DNA from: Felis catus
Taxonomy: Eukaryota
DNA: 64,000 nt
Assembly: GCF_018350175.1 (NCBI RefSeq)
Contig: NC_058374.1
Span: 41,974,001 to 42,038,000, forward strand
Reading direction: 5' to 3'
Part shown: one piece after another, positions 49,908-64,000 of the stretch
Layout of the letters: each line of letters starts with the position of its first letter
Position numbering within the stretch: position 1 is the stretch's first letter
Notes under the pieces: model-generated
What the model saw: the letters and a program-made list of their open reading frames with translations, nothing else
What the model was told of the DNA's origin: nothing
Database searches by the model: none
Made by a program: the position numbers and the translations under genes

Positions 49908-51597
49908 TCACTGGTAGAGCAGGTAGCGCTTCATGGCAGGGGGCAAGGGCAGAGCAGATACCTGGCCAAGCCGGGTATCCCCCAGGGCGTGGCGCACACA
50001 CAGGCGGCTCAGGTGCAGAAGGGAGTGTGGCTCCGCTGGGAGAGAGAAGGAGGGGAAGGTAAGTAGGGGTGCAGCCACTGGCCCGACCTCCTCAAACTAT
50101 GGGGTCCTGCCCAAGTTCTCTTCTGCTTTCCTGCCCTGAGTCTTGGTTGAGAGGGAGATCTAAGGCCCCCGGGGCTGGGAGGCTCTGCAGACTTCACACA
50201 TCCCGGGCAGCTGGGGGTGAAGCTCTAGCTAAGGCCCTCCAAGCAACAGGCCAGGCAAGTTCTGACAGTGGTGGAGCTGGTCTAGGTTTTGATTCCGTAA
50301 AAGCCTTGGAGCTGGGGCTGATGAGCCCTCCCTCCTCCACTCTACAACAGCTGGCCATGGGTGACCGGAGGAGCAGTACTCTGCAACTTGCAGAGAACAG
50401 TTCAACCAGCCCCAAGCTCTGGCCCCAACCCCTTCTAGAGGAGGCCCCTCCCCTGAAGTCCCCTCCCAGGGCCCTGCCTCTTTGGGTGTTCTCCTTCCAG
50501 GTGCCCAGGGCCCCAAAGGCCCCTTACTGGGGTTTGAGGAGGGAAGTAGCACAGACAGATCAGAACCCAGGGAATCTGGTACACACCCTGGGCGTCTGGC
50601 ACTGCCAGTTCTCTTCTACACCTCGCCCAGCACCCATTTAACCCTGTGCACCTCTTGCTCCGGAAGCTGATATCTGTGGTGAATCCCTAATCCCTGGAGC
50701 GCCTCCCTCTGTTCTGAGGACTCACCACTTACTAGCAAGTTGCTTTCCCAAGCCTCACTTTCACCTCTATTGCTGCTGGGACAATTAGGTAACATGCGTG
50801 AAGACCCTTAGCCATTCTCCACACTGGAGGCAGGTCAAGCTATTCCCTCTGCTCTTGTAAAGTGATGAGCTTCCATCCCAAACCACAGCCACCAGTAACA
50901 GAACACTCTCCCCACACCTGCCCCAGGCCTCACCTCTCCTTCCGNNNNNNNNNNNNNNNNNNNNNNNNNNNNNNNNNNNNNNNNNNNNNNNNNNNNNNNN
51001 NNNNNNNNNNNNNNNNNNNNNNNNNNNNNNNNNNNNNNNNNNNNNNNNNNNNNNNNNNNNNNNNNNNNNNNNNNNNNNNNNNNNNNNNNNNNNNNNNNNN
51101 NNNNNNNNCACCTCCAGCTGCTCACCCTGAGGTCTGGCTGGATACTGGGGGGCCCCGAACCCCTTGCTCTGATGGTACAGCTTCCCCCGCCCGATGTCCC
51201 AGCCCCACGACTCGCTGTTGCTGCCCAGCAGCGCCGCATAGTGGTCAACCTGCAGCGGGGCCAGGGCCGTGGCCACGCCCACCACGGCGTGGGTACCCCT
51301 CTGCTCCCGGGGCCAGCTGATCTCCCAGGCGTGCAGGCCCCTCGAGTAGCCCTTCTTACCCCGGGCCCCATCAGTGCTCTGGGCCACGGGCCGCCGCTCG
51401 AAGCATAACCCCCCTTCCTTGACCTCGATGTTCTCCGAGCAGTCCTTGGGGTTCCAGCCGTGGCGCTGTTGGGCTCCCAGATCAGGAGGGGGAGCAGACA
51501 GCAGCTCCTCCAAGCCCTCGGGACAGGAGAGGTCAGGGTACAAGGTCTGTGGGGTGGGGGTGCTGCTGCCGCCCCCTGCCAGGGCCGTCTGGCCCAT
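49908..51597 (-). CDS. SPSB2: SPRY domain-containing SOCS box protein 2, 263 aa
   Basis: Minus-strand exons 51597-50934 (50945-51108 masked) and 50035-49908 (792 nt). MGQTALAGG...RRPVAQSTDGARGK (SPRY) and SOCS box PHSLLHLSRLCVRH...LPLPPAMKRYLLYQ*. Confidence 0.96.
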
Positions 51598-51819
51598 GGA
51601 GGTGAGGAGCTTGGAGGACTCCCCGAATCTTGCTGGGGCGCCTCTCTTCTGAAAGTTGATCCTCCGGCTCGGGATTGACCTGGAGAGGACTTGGGAGAGA
51701 AGAGGGTGTAAAGGGCGGGATCCTGGCGGGGATCCCTCACCCAGGCGTCTCATCTTTTCATGCATGTTTGCCCACCACCGCTCCACTCCCTCTTCGCCCC
51801 CCACCCCCTTCCAAAGCTC

Positions 51820-52460
51820 TTAGGCCCATCACCCTGCCCTCGCCCATCTGTCCCGGTCTCCCGAGACTCTCGCGGGTTCACCCCCTTTGGATCTCTCCAG
51901 GGGTCGTCCCCTCTGCCCACCCCGTGCCCCGTCACCGCCCCCGCACCTCGCTTGGCTTTCCAGGCCGGGAGTCACAGGCCGTCAGGAGGAACCCCGCCGA
52001 AGATAGCCGAACGGCGCAGGGCGCAGACTGCCGGCCGCTTCCGCCTCCAGCACCTCCCTCGGCCTCGCCTCGCCCCGCCCCCAGGCCCCGCCCCCACGGG
52101 GCCCTCCGGGGCGGTTAACCCTCTCGTCGCCGCCCCAGGTCGCGCCCCGCCCCGTGGCCACCCCCCTGCGGGGCTCCTCGCGGGAGGTTTACACTCCACT
52201 CGGGTCGCTGCTGCGGAGGGCACGCCCCGCCCCGAGGACCCGCCCCCCCAGGACCCATCCCCGGATGGTTACCCTCTGGCGCCCGCCCCGAGGTCCCGCC
52301 CCGCGTGGAGACCCTCCTGGGTGGTTAACCCTCCTTGGCAGCCACGGAGTCTGCACCAGGCTGTCGAGGCTCAGAATGAACTCTGACGGGATCACCGCTT
52401 TGGGATCCCAGGAAGTGCGTTCGCCATCGTCAAGACCTTTGAGCCGCTTGAGCCGCTCAA
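51820..52460 (-). promoter_or_regulatory. SPSB2: SPSB2 CpG-island promoter / non-coding exon 1
   Basis: CpG-rich with many GC boxes (CCCCGCCC); candidate donor AG|GTGCGG near 51946 on the minus strand. Confidence 0.7.
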
Positions 52461-52699
52461 CTCCTGAGCCCCTAGAGATGAGGGGCATGGGGTCAAGGAG
52501 GGGCTTTCGTTGTGCTGGCATCTATTTCTATGTCCTTTTGATTCTGGGTCACTGTTTCTGGACCGGTCGCTTTCTGCCCCACTTGTAAGGGAGTCTGTTT
52601 TATGCCTGAGGCTTTGAACTATGTTTTCAGAGGTAGGTGTCCTAGGTCTAGTCTTCATCTTGGATGTCAATCCATTCCTGAGCTGTTGGTCTCAAATGG

Positions 52700-54420
52700 T
52701 GGAATATAGTGGTTAAGACTGGTTGTGAGTGAAGCTATGTCACTCATTAGCTCTATGACCTTGCGGAGGTTGCCAGACTTCTCTAAACCTGTTTTTTCTT
52801 ATGTAAAATGGGAATAATGATAGTAGTCACCTCATAGGGTCGTTGTGGAGTTGAAATAGTCCAGGTAAAGCACTTAGCACAGAGCCTCGTGCGTATTCAT
52901 GCAGTCACTAAGCATAATTATTATTGTTAACACTTACTGAGTGTCCACTCTATAGAAAGGCAATGTAATATAGTGATGACAGATGCCAAATGTGGAGCCA
53001 GGCTAACTGGGGGTGAATACCTGAAACCCAGTATGCACATGACCTTGGGCAAATTACTTAACCTGCCTGTTTCTTCTTCTGTAAGTTGGAGATACTGTTG
53101 GTATCTACTGCAAAGGGCATTGTGAGGATTCAGTGAGGTTATATATATGTAAACTCAGAGGAGCTTCTGGTTCAAATTTAATCATTTGTGCTAAGCACTG
53201 AAGATGCAGCAGTGAATCCCAAGGAGGTTACAGGGACATTTATAAAACAGTTTATCATGTAGTAGATGAAATTATGGAGATACAAAGAAAGTATTATGGG
53301 ACTCAAAAGGATGGAACTCCTAACCAAGGATCAAGCAGTTAGGCAAGTGTCCTGGAGGAAGTTAACACTGGGCTGAATCTTAAAGAATGACTAGGAATTG
53401 GCTTGAGAGGTGGTTCTGCAGGATGGGGGCTAGGTTTGGGGTGCTGCATGGAGAAGACATTCTCCAGACAGAGGGGTCAGCATGAAAAAAGCCAGAAGCA
53501 GTAGATGAGAAGCCTTTGGTGTCCCTGCAACTAGAAAGGAAGCAGGAGAGACAAGCCTAGAAAAGTCAGTGCCGGATGACAGTGACCTTGTAGATCAAGC
53601 TAAAGAATGCAAACGTTCTCTTGTTGGACAGGCCAGTAATGGGGAGACACATAGGAGGGAAGCAGGAGGGGAATATAGTCAGATACTCGTTTTAGAAAAG
53701 CCCTCCTGGGAGTGCCTGGCTCGCTCAGTCAGTAGACCATGAGACACTTAATCTTGGGCTCGGGTCAAGCTCCATATGGGGTGAAGAGATTATTAAAAAA
53801 AAAAAAATCATTAGAAAAACCACCCTGGCATAGCAAATGTAGAGGAGGCGTCAAGGGAAATACGATGAGAAGCAAAGAGACCAGTTACAGCAGCCCAGGT
53901 GACAAGTGGCAAGAGCCTGAAATAAGGCAGTAGAAATAAGGAAGAAAAGAATTCAAGAAACACTGATGAAACTGCAAGATTTGGTGGCTGATAAATGCTG
54001 AGGCGAGAGAAAGGGAGGTTTCTAGCCTGGAAGACTGTTGGAAAGTGGTACCGCTAATGCAGAAAGAAAAGCAATTGGAACGGGGCAGGGGGGTGGGGGG
54101 AAGATGAATGCACTTTAGGACATGTTTTTGAGGTGCACGACCTGAGCCACAACCAGATAGAACCATTCAGAACACATGTGAAAACTGCAGGTCTGAAGGG
54201 TAGTAAGAGGCCTGGGCTGGAGATATAAATTTGGGAGGTGATGCAGCCTTCAGCCAGAGGCTGAACTGTGGAGAATCAGTGAGGGGACCCAGAGACAGTG
54301 TGTAGAGAGAGAAGAGGGTTAAGGAGGACACAGTGAGCAGAAAATGCAAGCTTGATCACTCACAAGAATTTTTTGGTCATTAGCAACTTTGGTGAGAGAG
54401 CACATGTGGGAGGTGGGAGT
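52700..54420. mobile_element. Degraded MIR and L2-like fragments plus a short SINEC (about 53708-53810)
   Basis: MIR motifs (tgtaaaatgggaataatgatagta...taaagcacttagcacag; tgaccttgggcaaattacttaacct) and purine-rich L2-like sequence. Confidence 0.55.
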
Positions 54421-55286
54421 CTAGGTTGAAGAGGCTGACTTGGCATTTTCTGTAGGTCAGGTGCTGTTGTGCTACAAGCTTCACATTTTGGGGGGATAGA
54501 GAGTTGGGAGAGATAGGGTGACAATCATGTCTCGTCGTCAAAATTACCCTTGAAAATCCCTTACCTACCCCATCTATTAGATACAGCGTATGTTAGTTTT
54601 GTGTAAAACACAGTATGTGGCAGTATTCTACAATGATGTATGAATAAAATTGTATAATTTTAATTGAAGACAAAGAAGAAAACATATTAAAAGGAAAGAT
54701 GTGATCCTGAATACCTGTCATCCACCTAACCTAGATAATCTTGCCAGTGTGATGACAAAAATAATGACATCATGACCATGGATAATGGCCTATGATAAAT
54801 GTTAGTGCAGGAGCTGTGTGATAACTGCGTGGTTGAAGGCTTAGGGGACAAAGAGCAAGCCTCGGTCATGATGAGTCTAGTTCAGGTTCAGAAGTGCACC
54901 TGCTCAGCTGCTCGTTGTTTAATACATGGTATTCACCAGTTGTCACCCCAGAATCTTGAACTGCTCAAACATTTGGGGTGTGTGTGTGTGTGTGTGTTTT
55001 AACGAGAGAGCACAAGTGGGGGAGAGGGACAGAAGGAGAGAGAAAAATCTCAAGCAGGCTCCACACTCAGCACCAAGCCCGAGGTTGGGCTCAACCCACA
55101 GCCCTGGGATCATGACCTGAGCCAAAATCAAGACTGGGTCGCTCAACCAACTGAGCCACCCAGGCCCCCCTCAAATGTATTGATAATAGCTCAAATATTA
55201 CATAATGCTACATTTTATCTTTTTACTTTTTATTGAAATGTAGCATATGTAATCTTTAAAAATTTTTTTAACGTTTATTCATTTTT

Positions 55287-55809
55287 TTAAATATGAAATT
55301 TATTGTCAAATTGGTTTCCATACAACACCCAGTGCTCATCCCAAAAGGTGCCCTCCTTAATACCCATCACCCACCCTCCCCTCCCTCCCCCCCCCCCCCC
55401 CCATCAACCCTCAGTTTGTTCTCAGTTTTTAAGAGTCTCTTATTCTTTGGCTCTCTCCCTCTCTAACCTCTTTTTTTTTTTTCCTTCCCCTCCCCCATGG
55501 ACTTCTGTTAAGTTTCTCAGGATCCACATAAGAGTGAAAACATATGGTATCTGTCTTTCTCTGTATGACTTATTTCACTTAGCACAACACTCTCCAGTTC
55601 CAACCACGTTGCTACAAAAGGCCATATTTCATTCTTTCTCATCACCATATAGTATTCCATTGTGTATATAAACCACAATTTCTTTATCCATTCGTCAGTT
55701 GATGGACATTTAGGCTCTTTCCATAATTTGGCTATTGTTGAGAGTGCTGCTATAAACATTGGGGTACAAGTGCCCCTATGCATCAGCACTCCTGTATCCC
55801 TTGGGTAAA
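55287..55809 (-). mobile_element. Young 5'-truncated felid LINE-1 (ORF2 C-terminus plus 3' UTR)
   Basis: Uninterrupted ORF2 tail ...CTPMFIAALSTIAKLWKEPKCPSTDEWIKK...HMFSLLCGS*; 14-bp TSD GTTTATTCATTTTT (55273-55286 and 55810-55823). Confidence 0.93.
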
Positions 55810-55999
55810 GTTTATTCATTTTTGAGAGACAGAGAGAGATGAGTGCAAGCAGGGGTGGGGCAGAGAGAGAGGGAGACACAGAATCTGAAGCAGGTGCCAG
55901 GCTCTGAGCTGTCAGCACAGAGCCTGATGCAGGGGCTCGAACTCACGAACCATGAGATCATGACCTGAGCTTAACTGACTGAGCCATCCAGACGCCCCA

Positions 56000-56480
56000 G
56001 ATATGTAATCTTAAATTCAATGAATTTTTATGTATGCTGAATGACCGTCATCAAAAGGATCAAGAACATTTCTAGCATCCCAGAAGTCTCCTTCTTGCCT
56101 TTTCCTTGACACTGCACCTGTAAAGGTAACTCTTATTTGACCTCTATCCGTATAGATTTGTTTTGTCTGTTCAATTTCATATGATACCATATATTATATA
56201 TATGGTATAGTCTATTCTTTTGTGTCTGACTTATTTTTCTCAGCATGATGACTGTCATCTACCTTGTTGCATGAAATGGTAACTCATTATTTTCATTGTT
56301 ATACATTAATCCACCCTATGGACATACCACAATTTATTCTACCTTTGATGGCCATTTGTTTCCAGTTGTTAGCTATTATAAAGCTACTATGTACAGTATT
56401 GTATAAGTTTTTAGTGGACCTAGGCACTCACTTTTGTTGGGTGCATACTTACATGCAGAATTGCTGAGTTATAAGGAATA
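56000..56480 (-). mobile_element. Old L1M-type 3' fragment (its distal piece is at about 55225-55255)
   Basis: Degraded L1M 3'-end motifs (aagaacatttctagcatcccagaag; ataccacaatttatt; tttccagttgttagctattat; gaattgctgagt). Confidence 0.65.
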
Positions 56481-56707
56481 TAATGTTAACCACATGTGAT
56501 TTTCCAGTTTCCCTCCATAGAGATTTTATTCAGAAATTAAATCAGTCAGGTATTTCAGCATTTTTGCAGCAACTTCAATCTACTTACGATTTGATCTGGT
56601 CATCCCTTCCTGTTCATCGTATTTTTGTCTTCTGGGATGATTTTATCAGTTCCTCAAGCTTTTTCTTAGCGTTTCTCAGTGGCTCTCAAGAAGTTCTTCA
56701 CCAATGA

Positions 56708-57439
56708 CTGGGTGGCTCAGTTGGTTAAGCATCTGACTCCTGATTTCAGCTCAGATCATGATCTCTTGTCTCAGTTTGTGCGTGCAAGCCCCGTGTCTGG
56801 TTCTCGCGTGGAGCCTCCTTGGGGTTCTCTCCCTCTGTCTCTGCCCCTCCCCTGTGCTGTTTGTCTCTCTCTCAAAATAAACTTCAAAAAAAAATTTTAA
56901 TAAAAAAAATTCTTAAATTTCTTTTAAAAATTTTTTCTTAATGTTTATTCATTTTTTGAGAGAAAGAGAGACAGAGTGCAAGTGGGGGAGCAGCAGAGAG
57001 AGAGAGAGGGAGACACAGAATCCAAAGCAGAGTCCAGGCTCTGAGCTGTCAGCACAGAGCCTGATGCAGGGCTTGAACCCATGAACTGAGAGATCATGAC
57101 CTGAGCCAAAGTTGGCCACTCAACTGACTGAGCCACCCTGGCACCCCTTCAATTTCTTTCACAAAGCCAACATGACCCACTTGTTAGGCCATTTTAACAA
57201 TGTGTTTCACTTTTTTTTTTTTAAGTTCATTTATTTTGAGAGACAGAGAGAGCAAGCAGGGGAAAGGCAGAGAGGGAGGGGGAGAGAATCCCAAGCAGGC
57301 TCCACACTGTCAGCAGGGAGTCCAATGCAGGGCTAGAACCCATGACCATGAGATCATGACCTGAGCCGAAATCAAGAGTCATATGCTTAACCAGTTGAGC
57401 CACCCAGGTGCCCCTTTTAAAATTTTAAATGTTTATTTT

Positions 57440-57473
<34 letters not shown>

Positions 57474-57600
57474 ATGAATCCCAAGCAGGCTCCATGATCA
57501 GTTTACAGCTCGATGTGGGGCTTGGTCCACAACCGTGCAATCATGACCTGAATGGAAATCAAGAGTCAGACACTTAACCGACTGAGTCACCCAGGCACTC
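56708..57600. mobile_element. Four CAN-SINEs (56708-56910 +; 56925-57147 -; 57211-57414 -; 57425-57600 -) inside the Tigger fossil
   Basis: SINEC heads and tails; the last two share the outer TSD tgtgtttcactt (57201 and 57604). Confidence 0.85.
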
Positions 57601-59049
57601 CAGTGTGTTTCACTTCCCTGTCAATAGAAAACCCTTAAAATCCTAAACACATTCTTCCCAACACGCATGGCCTGTTTTAAGCTTGATTGTTGCCATGACT
57701 GTTCAATAGAAGTGTTGTAACCGGCAAGACTGAAGAATGTCCAACTCTTCCAACCTTACCACATTTAGATTAGGGTCAGCATTCATGGCTCTGAGAGTCA
57801 GAGTCTGGAATCTCAGCCTCGTGGATGTGACTGAAAAATCATGCTTAGGTCAGCAAACTGATGGACAGCGGTGATGTTGGGAAAGGTAGTCTTCGATGAC
57901 TCTAGGAGCACGTTCATAAAGAGTGTGGTACATCAGATGATATGCCAAGGTCTTCCTCTATGAGGTCTTACTTGACTTGTAGAATGTAGAACTGTAAATC
58001 CCAGCTGTGGAAAGTGCTGCGGTCACCTAGCGGTTTGCATGTGATTGCTGGAGTACAAGCTTCTTGTTTGGTTTTGCTTTGTGTTTTAGGGCACTGGATC
58101 TGTATCCCTGTAGAACACGTCTGGTTTTATTAAAGAAAGGGCTACACTGCCACCATGACAGAGGAGGAGAATGGTGGTCACAAGGCCATTAATGATTTTC
58201 AATCCAGGGCCTTGTGTTTCTAGTTTGGAAATATAAAAGCAGTTGGGCATTCCCCCCCACCCCCAAGATACCAACCTCGTTATATTCTAAAAGATAGCCA
58301 TTTGGCCAGCAATTGTTTTTAGTAGCTCTGGGTGGCTTTTACTCTCTGTTCTACACAGACACAGCCTCACTAAGGTTTGCTGGTTTTAAAAGAAGTGGTT
58401 TCTGAACGTTAGGCCATCCTTGCCTGGTTTTGAAATCCTTCCATCTGAAGCTCTCTTCTCTGGCAAGCGGTTGAACTAGGCCTTGAGACCAAGAGCTCCC
58501 CCCCCCCCCCGCCCCGTTTTTGTTTTTTGGTGTTTTTGTTTTTTGTTTTTGCCACGTATCGCCATTGTTAGGCTCATATATTTGGTTCCTTTCTTCCAGG
58601 AATAAATTTGTGCTCTTTGAGTCTGCATTAAAGGTTCATCACACTTACTTTGGTGTCGCTCTAGCAGTTACGCAAGAACTTGAAGACCTCCTACCTGGCC
58701 TCACAGATTTGTTGAATCTTGACCGCTCATGTGAATTTCTTGAGGTTCTATTTATGTGCCAGCTCGGAGGTGGACATAACCACCCCTTGGTAAAATGGTT
58801 GGCTTGCCTTCACATGGGTCGTGTTATATGGAAAAGAGGCATCTGTTCTGGAGTCTAGTTCTAAAAACGAAACACTGGAGTCGCAGTCAGCCTCCTAAGA
58901 CACAGGCACGGAGGAGCCAAAGAGAACATGACCTAGTCTCCCATCTGACACTGGCGCGGAACGGTGGCGGGCAACCTTCCGCCCCCTATTTAAGAAGTTC
59001 GCTGTTAAGTGCGTCTATGATTAAAACCCCATCCTATCTCATTAAGTCC

Positions 59050-59640
59050 TCACACTGAAGATACCCCAATTTTTACAGATTCGGAAACCGCGGCTCGGAG
59101 AGGTTAAGCGACCCGCCCAAGACTACAGGGCTGGTAAACGACAGCGTCAAGGATTTAAAAACGGGAAGCCACTCGCAAAACACCAGGGCGGCGACGAAAT
59201 GGCGACCGCAGAAAACCTGTGAGCCCGGGCGAGACGCCCCGCCCCGCCCTCCGCTGCCGCCCCGGGCGCTCGTTTCGTAACCGCGGCGGAGGGCGGGGCG
59301 CTGACTCCCGGCCCGCCGGCGGTCACGTGGGGGGTCACGTGGGCGGGCCGCCAGAGCGGGGGCTCGCACGCCCCCCAGCGGCCGCACCCGTTGCCGGGCG
59401 CTCCTCGCGTCCCACCTGCCTGCCCCGACGGAGGTAGGAGCCCTCAAGCTAGCGCCCGCCCCGGCACTGCAGCTCCCGCCCCCGCCACCCGCCTTCCGGA
59501 GCGTCTCGAACGTTCTGCGGAACAAAGGCCCCAGGGCGGAAGCGAGGGCCTGAAGCTTGAAAGGCTAGGGCCTCTTAAGCCGGCCGCTGAGGGGCGGCTC
59601 CAGTCCACGGCTCCAGAGGCGAGTGGAAGGGACCGGTGCT
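59050..59640. promoter_or_regulatory. Orphan CpG island with promoter motifs
   Basis: CpG-dense; tandem GGTCACGTGG (E-boxes 59324-59329 and 59336-59341), YY1-like AAATGGCG 59197-59204, several GC boxes; no adjacent coding exon. Confidence 0.75.
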
Positions 59641-59988
59641 TCTGCCAGTTTCCAATTCGAGGCTTACATCTTTACAAGTAAAGGGCCCACTTCCTCCATC
59701 CCTCAAAAAAATTTTCCTTTGCATCTCCTTCTCTCTTCCTTCAGCGTAGTAAGTAACGTCTGGGGGCCCTCCACAGGAGAGAATCTTTTTGTTCACCTTG
59801 GAAGAGGGAGATCAGAAGTAGGAGACACACAGGTTATGTTAGAAACTAGTATAAAGGAGCACACCTATTATAATAACCACAACCTCTTCAGCTCTGCAAA
59901 CCTCACCAAGATTAGGCAGTCATCAAATGTCTTGCTTGCCAAATATACCCTTTTGTTTATGTGTGCTAATTTAAAAAATACTGACTTT

Positions 59989-61779
59989 GGGGCGCCTGGG
60001 TGGCGCAGTCGGTTAAGCGTCCGACTTCAGCCAGGTCACGATCTCGCGGTCGGTGAGTTCGAGCCCCACGTCAGGCTCTGGGCTGATGGCTCGGAGCCTG
60101 TTTCCGATTCTGTGTCTCCCTCTCTCTCTGCCCCTCCCCCGTTCATGCTCTGTCTCTCTCTGTCCCAAAAATGAATAAACGTTGAAAAAAAATTTTTTTT
60201 TTAAAAAATAAAAAATAAAAAAAAAATACTGACTTTTTCTAATTTTCCTTCCACCTTTATATCTTTCAGGGCCTCTACTCCTTCCAGTGAATCCTTTTTT
60301 CTTTCTCTTTTTTAATGTTTATTTATTTTTGAGAGAGACAGACTGCAAGTGGGAAGGGGCAGAGAAAGAGGGAGACACAGAATCCAAGGCAGGCTCCAGG
60401 CTCTGAGCTGTCAGCACAGAGCCCGAAGCAGGGCTCCGGCCCACAAACCATGAGATCATGACCTGAGCTGAAGTTGGACGCTTAACCGACTGAGCTACCC
60501 AGGTGCTCCTCCTTCTAGTGAATCCTAATTGGGTGTCTCCCAGGCTTGTCCTTGGTTCATTCCTCCTCACTGATTCTCAAAAGTGGAAGCCTTGAGGAGA
60601 TAAGGACGTTTCAACTATAGGTACAAATCCAAACTGAGGGAAGAGTGTCCTCGATTACTTTTCTTTAATGTTTATTTTATTTTTGAGAGAGAGAGAGAGA
60701 CACAGAATGCGAGTTGGGGAGGGTCAGAGAGGAAGAGACAGAATCCAAAGCAGGCACCAGGCTCTAATCTGTCAGCACAGAGCCCAATGTGGGGCTCGGA
60801 CCCACAAACTGTGAGATCATGACCTGAGTTGAAGTTGGATGCTTACCCGACTGAGCTACCCAGGCGCCCCTGTCCTTGATTACTTTAAAAAAAAAAAAAA
60901 ACCCAAAAAACAAAAAAAACGTTTTTAATGTGTACTTATTTTGAGAGAGAGAGAGAGAAAGAGAGCATGAGCAGGGGAGGGGCAGAGAGAGAGGGAGACA
61001 CAGAATCCAAAGCAGGCTCCAGGCTCTGAGCTGTCAGCACAGAGCCTGACACGGGGCTCCAACCCACAAACTGTGAGATCGTGACCTGAGCTGAAGTAGG
61101 ATGCTTACCGGACTGAGCCACCCAGGCGCCCCTGTCCTTGATTACTTTTTAAAAGCACATTTAATATTCATTCAGTCAGGGTGGCTTAGTGGGTTAAGGG
61201 TATGACTCTTGATTTCAGCACAGGTCCTGATCTCCCATTTGGTGAGATTGAGCCCCCATCAGTCTCTGTGCTGACAGCATGGAGCCTGCTTGGATTTCTC
61301 TACCTCTCTCTCTGCTCCTCCCCGACTTGCGCATGTGCATGCACGTGCTCTCTCTCTCTCAAACCCCCTCCCGCCCCCCCAAGACAAAAACAACTTTTAA
61401 AAAACTGATTCAGCCAGTACTTATTAAGCACTTTTTATGTGGCATGCACTGTGCCAGGCAGCAGGATGCAGAGTGAAACTCAAGGTCTGCTGGAGTTGGA
61501 AGAAGCCAACTTAGAAGTCCTTGATGACATCTAGACTGGCGCAAACCTGATGATTTTTTTTTTTTAATTTTTTTTTCAACTTTTATTTATTTTTGGGACA
61601 GAGAGAGACAGAGCATGAACGGGGGAGGGGCAGAGAGAGAGGGAGACACAGAATCAGAGACAGGCTCCAGGCTCTGAGCCATCAGCCCAGAGCCTGACGC
61701 GGGGCTCGAACTCCCGGACCGCGAGATCGTGACCTGGCTGAAGTCGGACGCTTAACCGACTGCGCCACCCAGGCGCCCC
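59989..61779. mobile_element. Dense CAN-SINE cluster (59989-60225 +, 60300-60508 -, 60662-60870 -, 60920-61132 -, 61178-61400 +, 61556-61779 -)
   Basis: SINEC/SINEC_Fc bodies with TSDs such as aaaaatactgacttt and aaacctgatgatt. Confidence 0.9.
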
Positions 61780-62384
61780 AAACCTGATGATTAAGGCAAA
61801 TTGTGTTTACTGCTATCCAGGAAAGGCAGGGAACTGTAAGAGGGGATCCTACTTTGGATTCCAGATCAGGAAAGACCTTTCTGAGGCCTGGACGATGAGC
61901 AGGAGCTGGTGAAAAGTTCCACACAGAAGAAAAGAGTAGAAGTGAAAGCCCTGAAGGAGGAAGGGGCTTCGTGGTGGGAAGAACTGAAGAGAGGGCTATG
62001 TGGTCCAAGTGTGGCTTGGGCCCAAAAGTGAAGGTCAGAGAGGTGTCACAGCAGCTGGAGAGAAGCAGATGTATTCAAGATACATTTGGAGGTAGACTGG
62101 ATCGCACTCTGTGATATGTTCACTGGGAGGCCAGTGGGGAAAAGTGTCACCGAGGGTGAAAATAATGACAAGGATGACCCCGAGGTTCCTGCTTTGAACA
62201 TCTGAATGGTGATATAAGGAGCGCTGAAGAAAAGCAGAGGTAGGGGGAAAGATACAGGATTTGTTCGGGGGATGTGTTTGGTTGGAGATGTCTGTGAGTT
62301 ACATAAATGGAGAAGTAGGAGGTTAGCTATGTCAGCCTGGCACTGAGTAAAGAGTTCTTGGTTGGAAATAGAAATTTGGAACTC

Positions 62385-63570
62385 AGCGGGATACGTGCTG
62401 GTGTGCCGAAACTCGGTTGTAGGGGCTTGTGACAGCCGATGGTTTTTCATGAATTCCGTAAGCTAAGCCAGTTGTTAAAGGCTGCCATTATGTTTTTAAA
62501 AAGTGCGTAGACACAAATTTAAATAAATTATGTTTTATTTTATTATTTTTTTGAGATTTTAGTTTAAAAAAAAATTTTTTTTAAACGTTTTATTTATTTT
62601 TGAGATAGGGAGAGACAGAGCATGAACAGGGGAGGGTCAGAGAGAGAGGGAGACACAGAATCTGAAACAGGCTCCGGGCTGTCAGCACAGAGCCCGACGC
62701 GGGGCTCGAACTCACGGACTGCGAGATCATGACCTGAGCCGAAGTCGGCCGCTTAACCGACTGAGCCACCCAGGCGCCCTGAGATTTTAGTTTTTAAGTA
62801 ATCTCCACACCCAATGGAGGGCTCAAACTCACAGCCCCAAGATGAAGAGTGGCATGCTCTACCGACTAAACCATCCAGGCACCCCTAAATAAATTGAATT
62901 TTTCTTAAAAAAGGTTAAAAGGTACTTACAAGTCTTTGGAGCCAGAAGTCCAAGAGCAAGGTGTCAGTAGGTTTGGTTTCTTCTGAGGCCTTTCTTGCAG
63001 AAAAGGTGCTTTCTCATGTCCTCATACAGTCTTTTTCTCTGTGCCCAAATTTCGTCTTCTTAAACCGACAGCAGTCAGATTGGATTTGGGCCCACCCTAA
63101 AGGTCTCATTTTATTTTTTATTTTTTTAATTAATTAATTAGTTTATTTATTTTTGAGAGAGAGAGACAGAGCATGAGCAGGGGAAGGGCCAAGAGAGAGA
63201 GGGAGACACAGAATCCGAAGCAGGCTCCGGGCTCTGAGATCATGACCTGAGCCAAAGTTGGATGCTTAACCGACTGAGCCACCCAGGCGCCCAATAAAGG
63301 TCTCATTTTAATGTCACTATCACTTTACAGGGCCTATTTCCAAACATAGTCACATTCAGAGGTACTGGGAGTTAGGACTTCAAAATATGGATGAGGGAGC
63401 AAATTCAGCCCCTAACAATGTTACTGTTATGTATGCTCTTGAAGTTATTTACCTTGTGAAGTCAGCCATGGTGGGAGTGTTTACACCAGAGAAATTGGCA
63501 AATGCTAAAAATTAAGGCTTTTTGTTATCCCTGGAGCAGCTGTTGTTAGACATTTACCAACACACCACAC
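62385..63570. mobile_element. hAT (MER63/Blackjack-like) fossil interrupted by nested SINECs and an MLT1-like LTR (about 62930-63420)
   Basis: Ends gtgctggtg... and ...tgttagacatttaccaacacaccac; MLT1-like ggagccagaagtccaagagcaaggtgtcagtagg; SINEs at 62575-62780 and 63110-63292. Confidence 0.5.
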
Positions 63571-63627
63571 ATCATAACTATAGGTGTTACTTAGTCTCTA
63601 GAGTATAATTTGAATCTGAAAAATGTG

Positions 63628-63630
<3 letters not shown>

Positions 63631-63669
<39 letters not shown>

Positions 63670-63680
63670 CACACACACAC
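63631..63680. repeat. (CA)n microsatellite
   Basis: About 18 perfect CA units plus an imperfect tail. Confidence 0.95.
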
Positions 63681-64000
63681 CACTATTTTGCTGAAGTATT
63701 TTAAGCTATGACTGGTACAGATACAGAGAAAGTCTTCTCTGTGTCAGTGATTCGCAAAGAGAAGTGTATCAAGATGCTTTCCACTGAGTCACAGAAACTC
63801 TGACCAAGTGGTATTAAAGGACATTTCATAAAGACATTTGTTATTTCACATAAAAATAAATCCAGGGGTAGTGGGGGCTTCTGGAAAAGAGGGTTCCTTA
63901 CTCTCAAGAGAAAGCAGCAGTAAGGAACTCTGGCAGAATGTGAATGGCTTCACTCGGGTCATTGATTGCTACCTGCAGCCATCACATGACTATGGGAAGA

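What the first reader, a model, noticed from the sequence alone, without database searches (positions are those of the whole stretch)
54458..59640. Hidden near-full-length Tigger/pogo transposase fossil directly beside an orphan CpG-island promoter
Seen: once SINE/L1 insertions are removed, the minus strand from about 58860 to 54900 carries, in order, degraded versions of motifs typical of Tigger/TIGD (CENP-B/pogo family) transposases. These are the HTH region (NLFLEERNQ..NGD, FKTRQGW, SEAVS), the DDE-domain start (MPNCFYISK..GPGLK..TILLLC..IKP..YR), CWEECV*DFKGF, VKHIVKMA*QVG..GF, EELLESH..LEELIKSS, SMEGNWKIT and MFEQFK..QL.NTM. The ORF track shows only two scraps (58086-58274 and the tail of 54943-55146). 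Its 5' end abuts a CpG island with no gene attached. Known: pogo/Tigger transposases were domesticated several times in mammals (CENPB, JRK, TIGD genes) as single-exon ORFs. Inference: either an unusually complete ancient autonomous element, or a dead (unitary pseudogene) TIGD-like gene whose promoter survives and may now drive non-coding or SPSB2 upstream transcripts.
Basis: partly seen in the sequence, partly recalled or inferred. Interest (0 to 1): 0.7.

Follow-up and report, generated by a model that had tools for sequence, protein, structure and literature searches.

The report
Ancient dead Tigger transposase beside promoter
Upstream of the SPSB2 gene in a cat genome lies a long, badly broken copy of a Tigger jumping-gene enzyme that likely died before today's mammal groups split, and the CpG island touching its front end is likely a host promoter rather than the relic of a lost gene, though a brief past as a host gene is not excluded.

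Summary
The fossil is real. With four SINEs, a SINE-plus-young-L1 insert and an old L1 fragment excised (target-site duplications), 1,515 native bases on the minus strand remain. They align in order to Tigger-clade transposases: score 120 against 41±4 for shuffles. Four core segments and one C-terminal segment... in all 4 of 6 segments beat 200 of 200 shuffles; the N-terminal HTH and the last C-terminal motifs do not. Plain Pfam misses it.

It is long dead. Unnamed orthologous peptides share its frameshifts and the loss of the first catalytic motif. It is more decayed than 12 of 12 Tigger2-type fossils, and an old L1 fragment interrupts it. No terminal inverted repeats were found, but the control also failed.

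The island (59051-59700) is real and has no coding first exon nearby. Islands flank 8 of 18 intact pogo ORFs and 0 of 57 fossils, which keeps a once-domesticated gene possible (about 25%). Transcription was not shown.

Verdict: an old, probably neutral Tigger fossil of unassigned family; modest interest.

The parts
59051..59700 (.). CpG island with no coding first exon nearby; two GTCACGTG E-boxes (59322, 59334), 10 GC-box words in 58979-59592, a YY1-like word (59197, + strand), an ETS-like word (59493); factor names recalled
   Evidence: CpG-rich shore extends into 58500-59050 (o/e 0.64) while the fossil body is depleted (0.27)
58580..58780 (-). Probable N-terminal psq/HTH region, heavily decayed; holds a donor-like site AAA|GTAAGT (last exon base 58649)
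   Evidence: collinear but not above shuffles, 71 of 200; donor word
58497..58550 (-). A-rich/G-rich microsatellite inside the HTH-coding part; its length differs among orthologous peptides
58245..58440 (-). End of HTH_Tnp_Tc5-like region to start of DDE domain; first catalytic motif shortened by about 4 codons with D read as N
   Evidence: 0 of 200 shuffles
57628..58259 (-). DDE domain, broken by many frameshifts and stops; the second catalytic motif falls in a gap of about 11 codons, the third D aligns at about 57850
   Evidence: both halves 0 of 200 shuffles; alignment
57198..57600 (-). Two nested carnivore SINEs; 15-nt target-site duplication 57615-57601 / 57212-57198
57147..57197 (-). Native transposase piece (VKMA*QVG..GF)
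56912..57146 (-). SINE with 15-nt target-site duplication
56696..56911 (+). SINE in the opposite orientation; duplication 8-9 of 10-11 nt, boundary less sure
56478..56695 (-). Native C-terminal piece (EELLESH to KIT)
   Evidence: 0 of 200 shuffles for 57197-56520; 0 of 60 with L005 alone
55200..56477 (-). Old L1 3' fragment inserted in the ORF (9 of 11 nt duplication; L1M label recalled), itself interrupted at about 55245-56000 by a SINE and a young L1 3' end (15-nt duplication)
   Evidence: best paralogues only short patches, E>=1.7e-10
54962..55170 (-). SINE with CA tail, degenerate duplication
54925..54961 (-). Probable last codons of the transposase (with the native piece 55171-55199)
   Evidence: seen; not significant, 194 of 200
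54458..54924 (-). AT-rich 3' tail with ATTAAA at 54923 and 54664; no terminal inverted repeat identified

Best explanation
This is the broken remnant of a Tigger-clade pogo transposase gene that likely came in as an autonomous cut-and-paste element next to a host CpG island and likely decayed without selection from before the Tigger2 wave onward. Shown: homology and order of the domains, the insertions, loss of catalytic motifs, lesions shared with orthologues. Inferred: the element landed in open chromatin beside the island with its 5' end facing it; frameshifts and an old L1 insertion killed the ORF early; carnivore SINEs and a young L1 were added later. The island is predicted to be a housekeeping-type, two-way promoter or enhancer kept for host reasons (SPSB2, LRRC23 or non-coding RNA). 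A minus-strand transcript would run into the fossil and could splice from the donor-like site at 58649 to the SPSB2 acceptor at 51679; this is untested. No transposase is made.
For: Homology. Tree: inside the Tigger clade (100/100), sister to Tigger2-type fossils (96/90), end branch 1.96 against 0.24-0.33 for those fossils. Orthologues: P0003 and P0009 find this locus as best or only hit in the genome (E 1e-31, next 1e-7 at 30%). Shared lesions: P0001 and P0003 cross the HPELLK-to-GYLLE frame change with no indel against the window; P0001, P0003, P0005 and P0006 cross the EQRVK-to-HPELLK change, and P0006 ends at the same stop; P0003 and P0009 cross the VTAAL-to-FHSW change; P0001 reads YNE at the first catalytic motif as the window does. 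Frames are equally conserved among five orthologues, 169/210 shifted and 174/220 ancestral. Age: 29 of 56 invariant columns kept, against 33-42 in 12 Tigger2-type and a mean of 0.75 in 10 Tigger1-type fossils; breaks per 100 codons 6.9, 4.3 and 2.2, so both measures move together. The old L1 insert has only short paralogous matches. PMC1914374 (passages) places Tigger1/2/5 near the split of primates and rodents from carnivores and names earlier Tigger families. About 9% of this gene-dense window lies within 500 nt of an island, so chance adjacency is possible.
Against: Island adjacency is a trait of intact pogo ORFs (8 of 18) and of none of 57 fossils; PMC2777200 (parts 1-2 of 5 read) reports 8 of 13 human Tigger-derived genes at two-way CpG islands. 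No paralogous copies were found, whereas a Tigger2-type query of equal length gave 2,149 candidates; at this age that test is weak. No terminal inverted repeat pair was found (control failed). P0003 against the window is more alike in ancestral-frame stretches (70/95) than in shifted ones (41/70), though the shifted class holds the indel-rich parts. The tree placement is biased, because the fossil was read through with the Tigger2-type profile.
Confidence: 0.65

Rival explanations
1. A once-domesticated, single-exon TIGD-like gene: the Tigger ORF was captured by the island, served as a host gene for a while, and was lost before the sampled mammals split; the island outlived it.
For: 5' end faces the island and the CpG-rich shore covers it; islands beside 8 of 18 intact ORFs and 0 of 57 fossils; no paralogues and no inverted repeats found; the model of PMC2777200; PMC7386202 (section 9) records lost and pseudogenised TIGD genes.
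Against: No full-length homologue in three protein searches with single-frame or fragment queries (weak). All six distinct orthologous peptides are broken. Motif loss is no greater than the break count predicts, so no long spell of drift with the frame kept is visible. The fossil controls are younger and were picked by score, and the window is island-dense.
Confidence: 0.25
2. The island itself grew out of the element's 5' end, that is, the transposon donated the promoter.
For: The island abuts the presumed start, and CpG o/e falls smoothly from 1.1 to 0.2 across 59400-58200.
Against: No transposase-like reading above chance in 59300-58560; no terminal repeat at or beyond the island; none of 57 Tigger fossils shows an island.
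Confidence: 0.07
3. Chance motifs in repeat-rich DNA.
For: Pfam and plain tblastn find nothing.
Against: Four segments at 0 of 200 shuffles, in order, on one strand; orthologue P0003 links the locus to the TIGD1 ORF at E 2.7e-6.
Confidence: 0.01

Closest known systems
Tigger2-type pogo fossils of this genome (family label recalled; loci L071-L106)
   Same: Domain order; 103 of 294 aligned residues match the profile; sister group in the tree.
   Different: DNA similarity limited to one 83-nt patch at 69%; no copies found; more decayed; so a different, older family.
TIGD1, TIGD1-like and CENPBD1 ORFs (L005, L009, L011, L013, L014, L018; names)
   Same: Same clade, best single-protein scores 61-103; L011 and L018 (CENPBD1) also sit just behind a CpG island.
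   Different: Those are intact ORFs with named orthologues; this one has at least 16 frameshifts and 3 stops in 275 core columns and no intact orthologue found.
Early Tigger families such as Tigger6a, Tigger8 and the parent of MER46c (PMC1914374)
   Same: Age class older than Tigger1/2.
   Different: Family membership not testable without Dfam or Repbase.
CENPB, JRK, JRKL, TIGD2-7
   Same: pogo HTH plus DDE_1 architecture.
   Different: Other clade (100/100). TIGD7 (L022) scores 75; the others score at shuffle level. Names other than TIGD2, TIGD6 and TIGD7 are recalled.

Membership tests
pogo/Tigger transposase | DDE_1-type catalytic domain homology | tested here: met
   Frameshift-aware alignment, both halves 0 of 200 shuffles; direct Pfam scan negative
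pogo/Tigger transposase | HTH_Tnp_Tc5 region before the DDE domain | tested here: met
   C-terminal end of the HTH to DDE start, 0 of 200
pogo/Tigger transposase | N-terminal CENP-B_N/psq HTH | tested here: inconclusive
   71 of 200 shuffles reach the score
pogo/Tigger transposase | Intact catalytic triad | tested here: not met
   First motif shortened with D read as N, second in a gap, third aligns; expected of a fossil
Autonomous Tigger element | Terminal inverted repeats and TA duplication | tested here: inconclusive
   Best pair 18 of 24, shuffles up to 19; the control on 12 Tigger2-type loci found no clear pair either
Tigger1 or Tigger2 family | DNA identity of 70-90% to many genomic copies | tested here: not met
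   3 candidates against 2,149 for a Tigger2-type control
Named older Tigger family (Dfam/Repbase) | Match to the family consensus | not testable with these tools
   No repeat library is held
Domesticated TIGD-type gene (criteria of PMC7386202) | Intact ORF conserved across species | tested here: not met
   Broken here and in 6 of 6 distinct orthologous peptides
Domesticated TIGD-type gene (criteria of PMC7386202) | Ka/Ks below 1 | not testable with these tools
   No orthologous DNA obtained; peptide proxy 0.80 vs 0.79 among orthologues, 0.74 vs 0.59 against the window
Domesticated TIGD-type gene | Single copy | tested here: inconclusive
   No paralogue found, but search power is low at this age
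Domesticated TIGD-type gene (PMC2777200) | CpG-island promoter at the 5' end | tested here: met
Unitary pseudogene | Functional orthologue in an outgroup | not testable with these tools
   No other mammal genomes are held; protein searches negative but weak
Active orphan-island promoter | Transcription start and strand | not testable with these tools

The most novel reading that the evidence does not exclude
The locus is an extinct mammalian gene: a Tigger transposase domesticated under this CpG island in early mammals and lost before the placental orders split, whose promoter survives as an orphan island and now feeds SPSB2 through a splice donor inside the dead HTH-coding sequence.
Probability: 0.2. 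Interest if true: 0.6.

Novelty: new member of a known kind. Interest (0 to 1): 0.3.

Why it matters
As a neutral fossil it is a rare long coding copy of an early Tigger family, useful for repeat libraries and for dating, and it shows how much ancient transposase sequence hides from Pfam. If it was once a host gene, it would be a worked case of an orphan CpG island explained by gene loss, and an addition to the list of pogo domestications. The island lies in the SPSB2-LRRC23 interval, where a human variant is linked to SPSB2 expression and exhaled nitric oxide (PMC8593164, passages); whether that variant lies near the orthologous island was not checked.

Tried and rejected
Pfam on 12 single-frame translations and on P0001/P0002: no pogo family. 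Plain tblastn and blastn against fetched loci: nothing useful. A profile of 8 intact ORFs scored only 68 and covered one stretch. phmmer over 1.84 billion representatives: 1 hit, an orthologous fragment. Search for longer relatives of P0003: 0 of 437 candidates. Metagenome scans for orthologous DNA: 0 of 146 and 0 of 153 pattern matches confirmed. The protein atlas gave no answer. Inverted-repeat scans: only SINE pairs or chance-level pairs. Rfam over 50000-64000: 8 matches, all below gathering score, 7 of them on SINEs. Absence of paralogues was rejected as strong evidence for domestication, because an old L1 fragment from a very large family also gives only 23 short hits. Earlier scan notes: nothing. 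Literature searches found no description of this locus (listings only); supplements of PMC2777200 and PMC7386202 were not read and may bear on that claim.
Full report
Setting. The window is G000:C16:41974001-42038000. It holds USP5, TPI1 and SPSB2 exons, and LRRC23 and ENO2 follow to the right; these gene names are recalled from the translations. Intact ORFs elsewhere in G000 are identical to named felid records. The finding lies between the SPSB2 island (51751-52450) and the island before LRRC23 (about 7.3 kb past the window end).

Anatomy. Target-site duplications delimit the insertions: a nested SINE pair (57198-57600), two SINEs of opposite orientation (56696-57146), an old L1 3' fragment (55200-56477) that itself holds a SINE and a young L1 end, and a SINE at 54962-55170. 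Removing 2,341 inserted bases leaves 1,515 native bases between 58780 and 54925. Two of the duplications are degenerate (8-10 of 10-11 nt), so those boundaries are good to a few bases only.

Homology. Pfam found no pogo family in 12 of 12 single-frame translations. I therefore fetched pogo-family loci from the genome (150 DDE_1 and 139 HTH_Tnp_Tc5 matches scored, 30 loci each) and used a frameshift-aware aligner with dinucleotide shuffles. Eight of 18 intact ORFs score above every shuffle against the excised element; the best are TIGD1 (103), a TIGD1-like ORF (95) and CENPBD1 (89). A profile of 19 Tigger2-type fossils (20 read, 1 duplicate dropped; family label recalled) aligns 58437-56667 with score 120 against 41±4 and 103 of 294 identities. 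Four of six segments beat 200 of 200 shuffles; the N-terminus and the last C-terminal motifs do not. A 25-row tree puts the fossil in the Tigger clade as sister to Tigger2-type copies, on a long branch of 1.96; that placement is unsure because of branch length and because the read-through used the Tigger2-type profile.

Orthologues. Protein searches returned six distinct unnamed peptides (P0001, P0002/3, P0005, P0006, P0007/9, P0008) besides the window's own. P0003 and P0009, the two tested, find this locus as best or only hit in G000. The six are 57-70% identical to the window's translation, which by simulation means about 15-23% base differences. They are 67-95% alike in a shared 43-residue block, so five of them may come from one clade; their species are unknown. 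They cross three of the window's frame changes without an indel against it, one ends at the same stop, and one shows the same shortened first catalytic motif. The ORF was therefore already broken in the common ancestor. Longer open stretches such as the 179 aa of P0003 alternate ancestral and shifted frames, with compensating indels at different places in different peptides; gene callers report only such lucky stretches. Among five orthologues the shifted frame is as conserved as the ancestral one (169/210 and 174/220). P0003 against the window gives 41/70 and 70/95, a result in the other direction that is confounded by indel-rich parts.

Age. At 56 columns invariant in seven intact Tigger-clade proteins, the fossil keeps 29; eight shuffles keep 15-25 of 46-56. 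Twelve of 19 Tigger2-type fossils were tested and keep 33-42; ten of 15 further DDE fossils (Tigger1-type, whose family is in the profile) keep 0.75 on average. Breaks per 100 codons are 6.9, 4.3 and 2.2. Simulated decay matches the window near 0.3 substitutions per site, with a wide range (0.2-0.4). The L1 fragment inside the ORF has only 23 short paralogous hits, unlike Tigger2-type copies, which match over about 1 kb at 70-75%. PMC1914374 (passages) places Tigger1/2/5 near the divergence of primates and rodents from carnivores and artiodactyls. Death of this ORF before the placental orders split is thus inferred, not shown.

The island. 59051-59700 has GC 0.67 and CpG o/e 0.97, two GTCACGTG words, GC boxes, and YY1-like and ETS-like words (factor names recalled). 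Its CpG-rich shore reaches about 500 nt into the fossil, whose body is as depleted as other fossils. Among fetched loci, 8 of 18 intact pogo ORFs and 0 of 57 fossils (21 duplicate loci dropped first) have an island within about 1.5 kb of the matched domain. This is the best argument for past domestication and agrees with PMC2777200 (parts 1-2 of 5 read). Donor-like words lie at 58649 on the minus strand and 59218 on the plus strand; the SPSB2 second exon starts at 51679. That human gene models give SPSB2 a far-upstream first exon is recalled and was not checked.

Copy number and ends. DNA and protein searches found no paralogue, so the element is not Tigger1 or Tigger2; an older low-copy family would escape these searches. 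No terminal repeat pair rose above shuffles, and the same test failed on 12 control loci.

Verdict. Homology and early death are well supported. Neutral fossil beside a host island 0.65; lost domesticated gene 0.25; island donated by the element 0.07. Five literature searches (listings only) found no account of the locus, but repeat libraries and paper supplements were not seen. PMC7386202 was read as passages and section 9, PMC5753468 and PMC8593164 as passages. New member of a known kind; interest 0.3.

Noticed in passing
L009:937-2712, L011:832-2610, L014:877-2736: Intact TIGD1-like ORFs whose 90% clusters hold bear, seal, dog or (L009) horse proteins. PMC7386202 set TIGD1-like sequences aside as pseudogene-like, yet these look conserved across carnivores or beyond and may be unrecognised domesticated genes.
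   Followed up: no
L044:1237-2238: A 334-aa, internally deleted Tigger2-type ORF that keeps the HTH part; its cluster members are named 'transmembrane protein 186 isoform X1' in several cats, a possible transposase-capture exon.
   Followed up: no
L013 and L015: Two near-intact ORFs (584 and 548 aa) of a third Tigger family, with felid and hyena cluster members for L013.
   Followed up: no
window 52090-52340: Three degenerate direct repeats of about 60-100 nt, each with a GGT(T)AACC word followed by GC boxes, in the SPSB2 island; seen by eye.
   Followed up: no
window 55245-56000: A SINE joined directly to a young L1 3' end within one 15-nt target-site duplication, suggesting a single chimeric retrotransposition event.
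   Followed up: partly
window 52189-52521 (-): 110-aa ORF overlapping the SPSB2 island edge; probably chance in GC-rich DNA.
   Followed up: no
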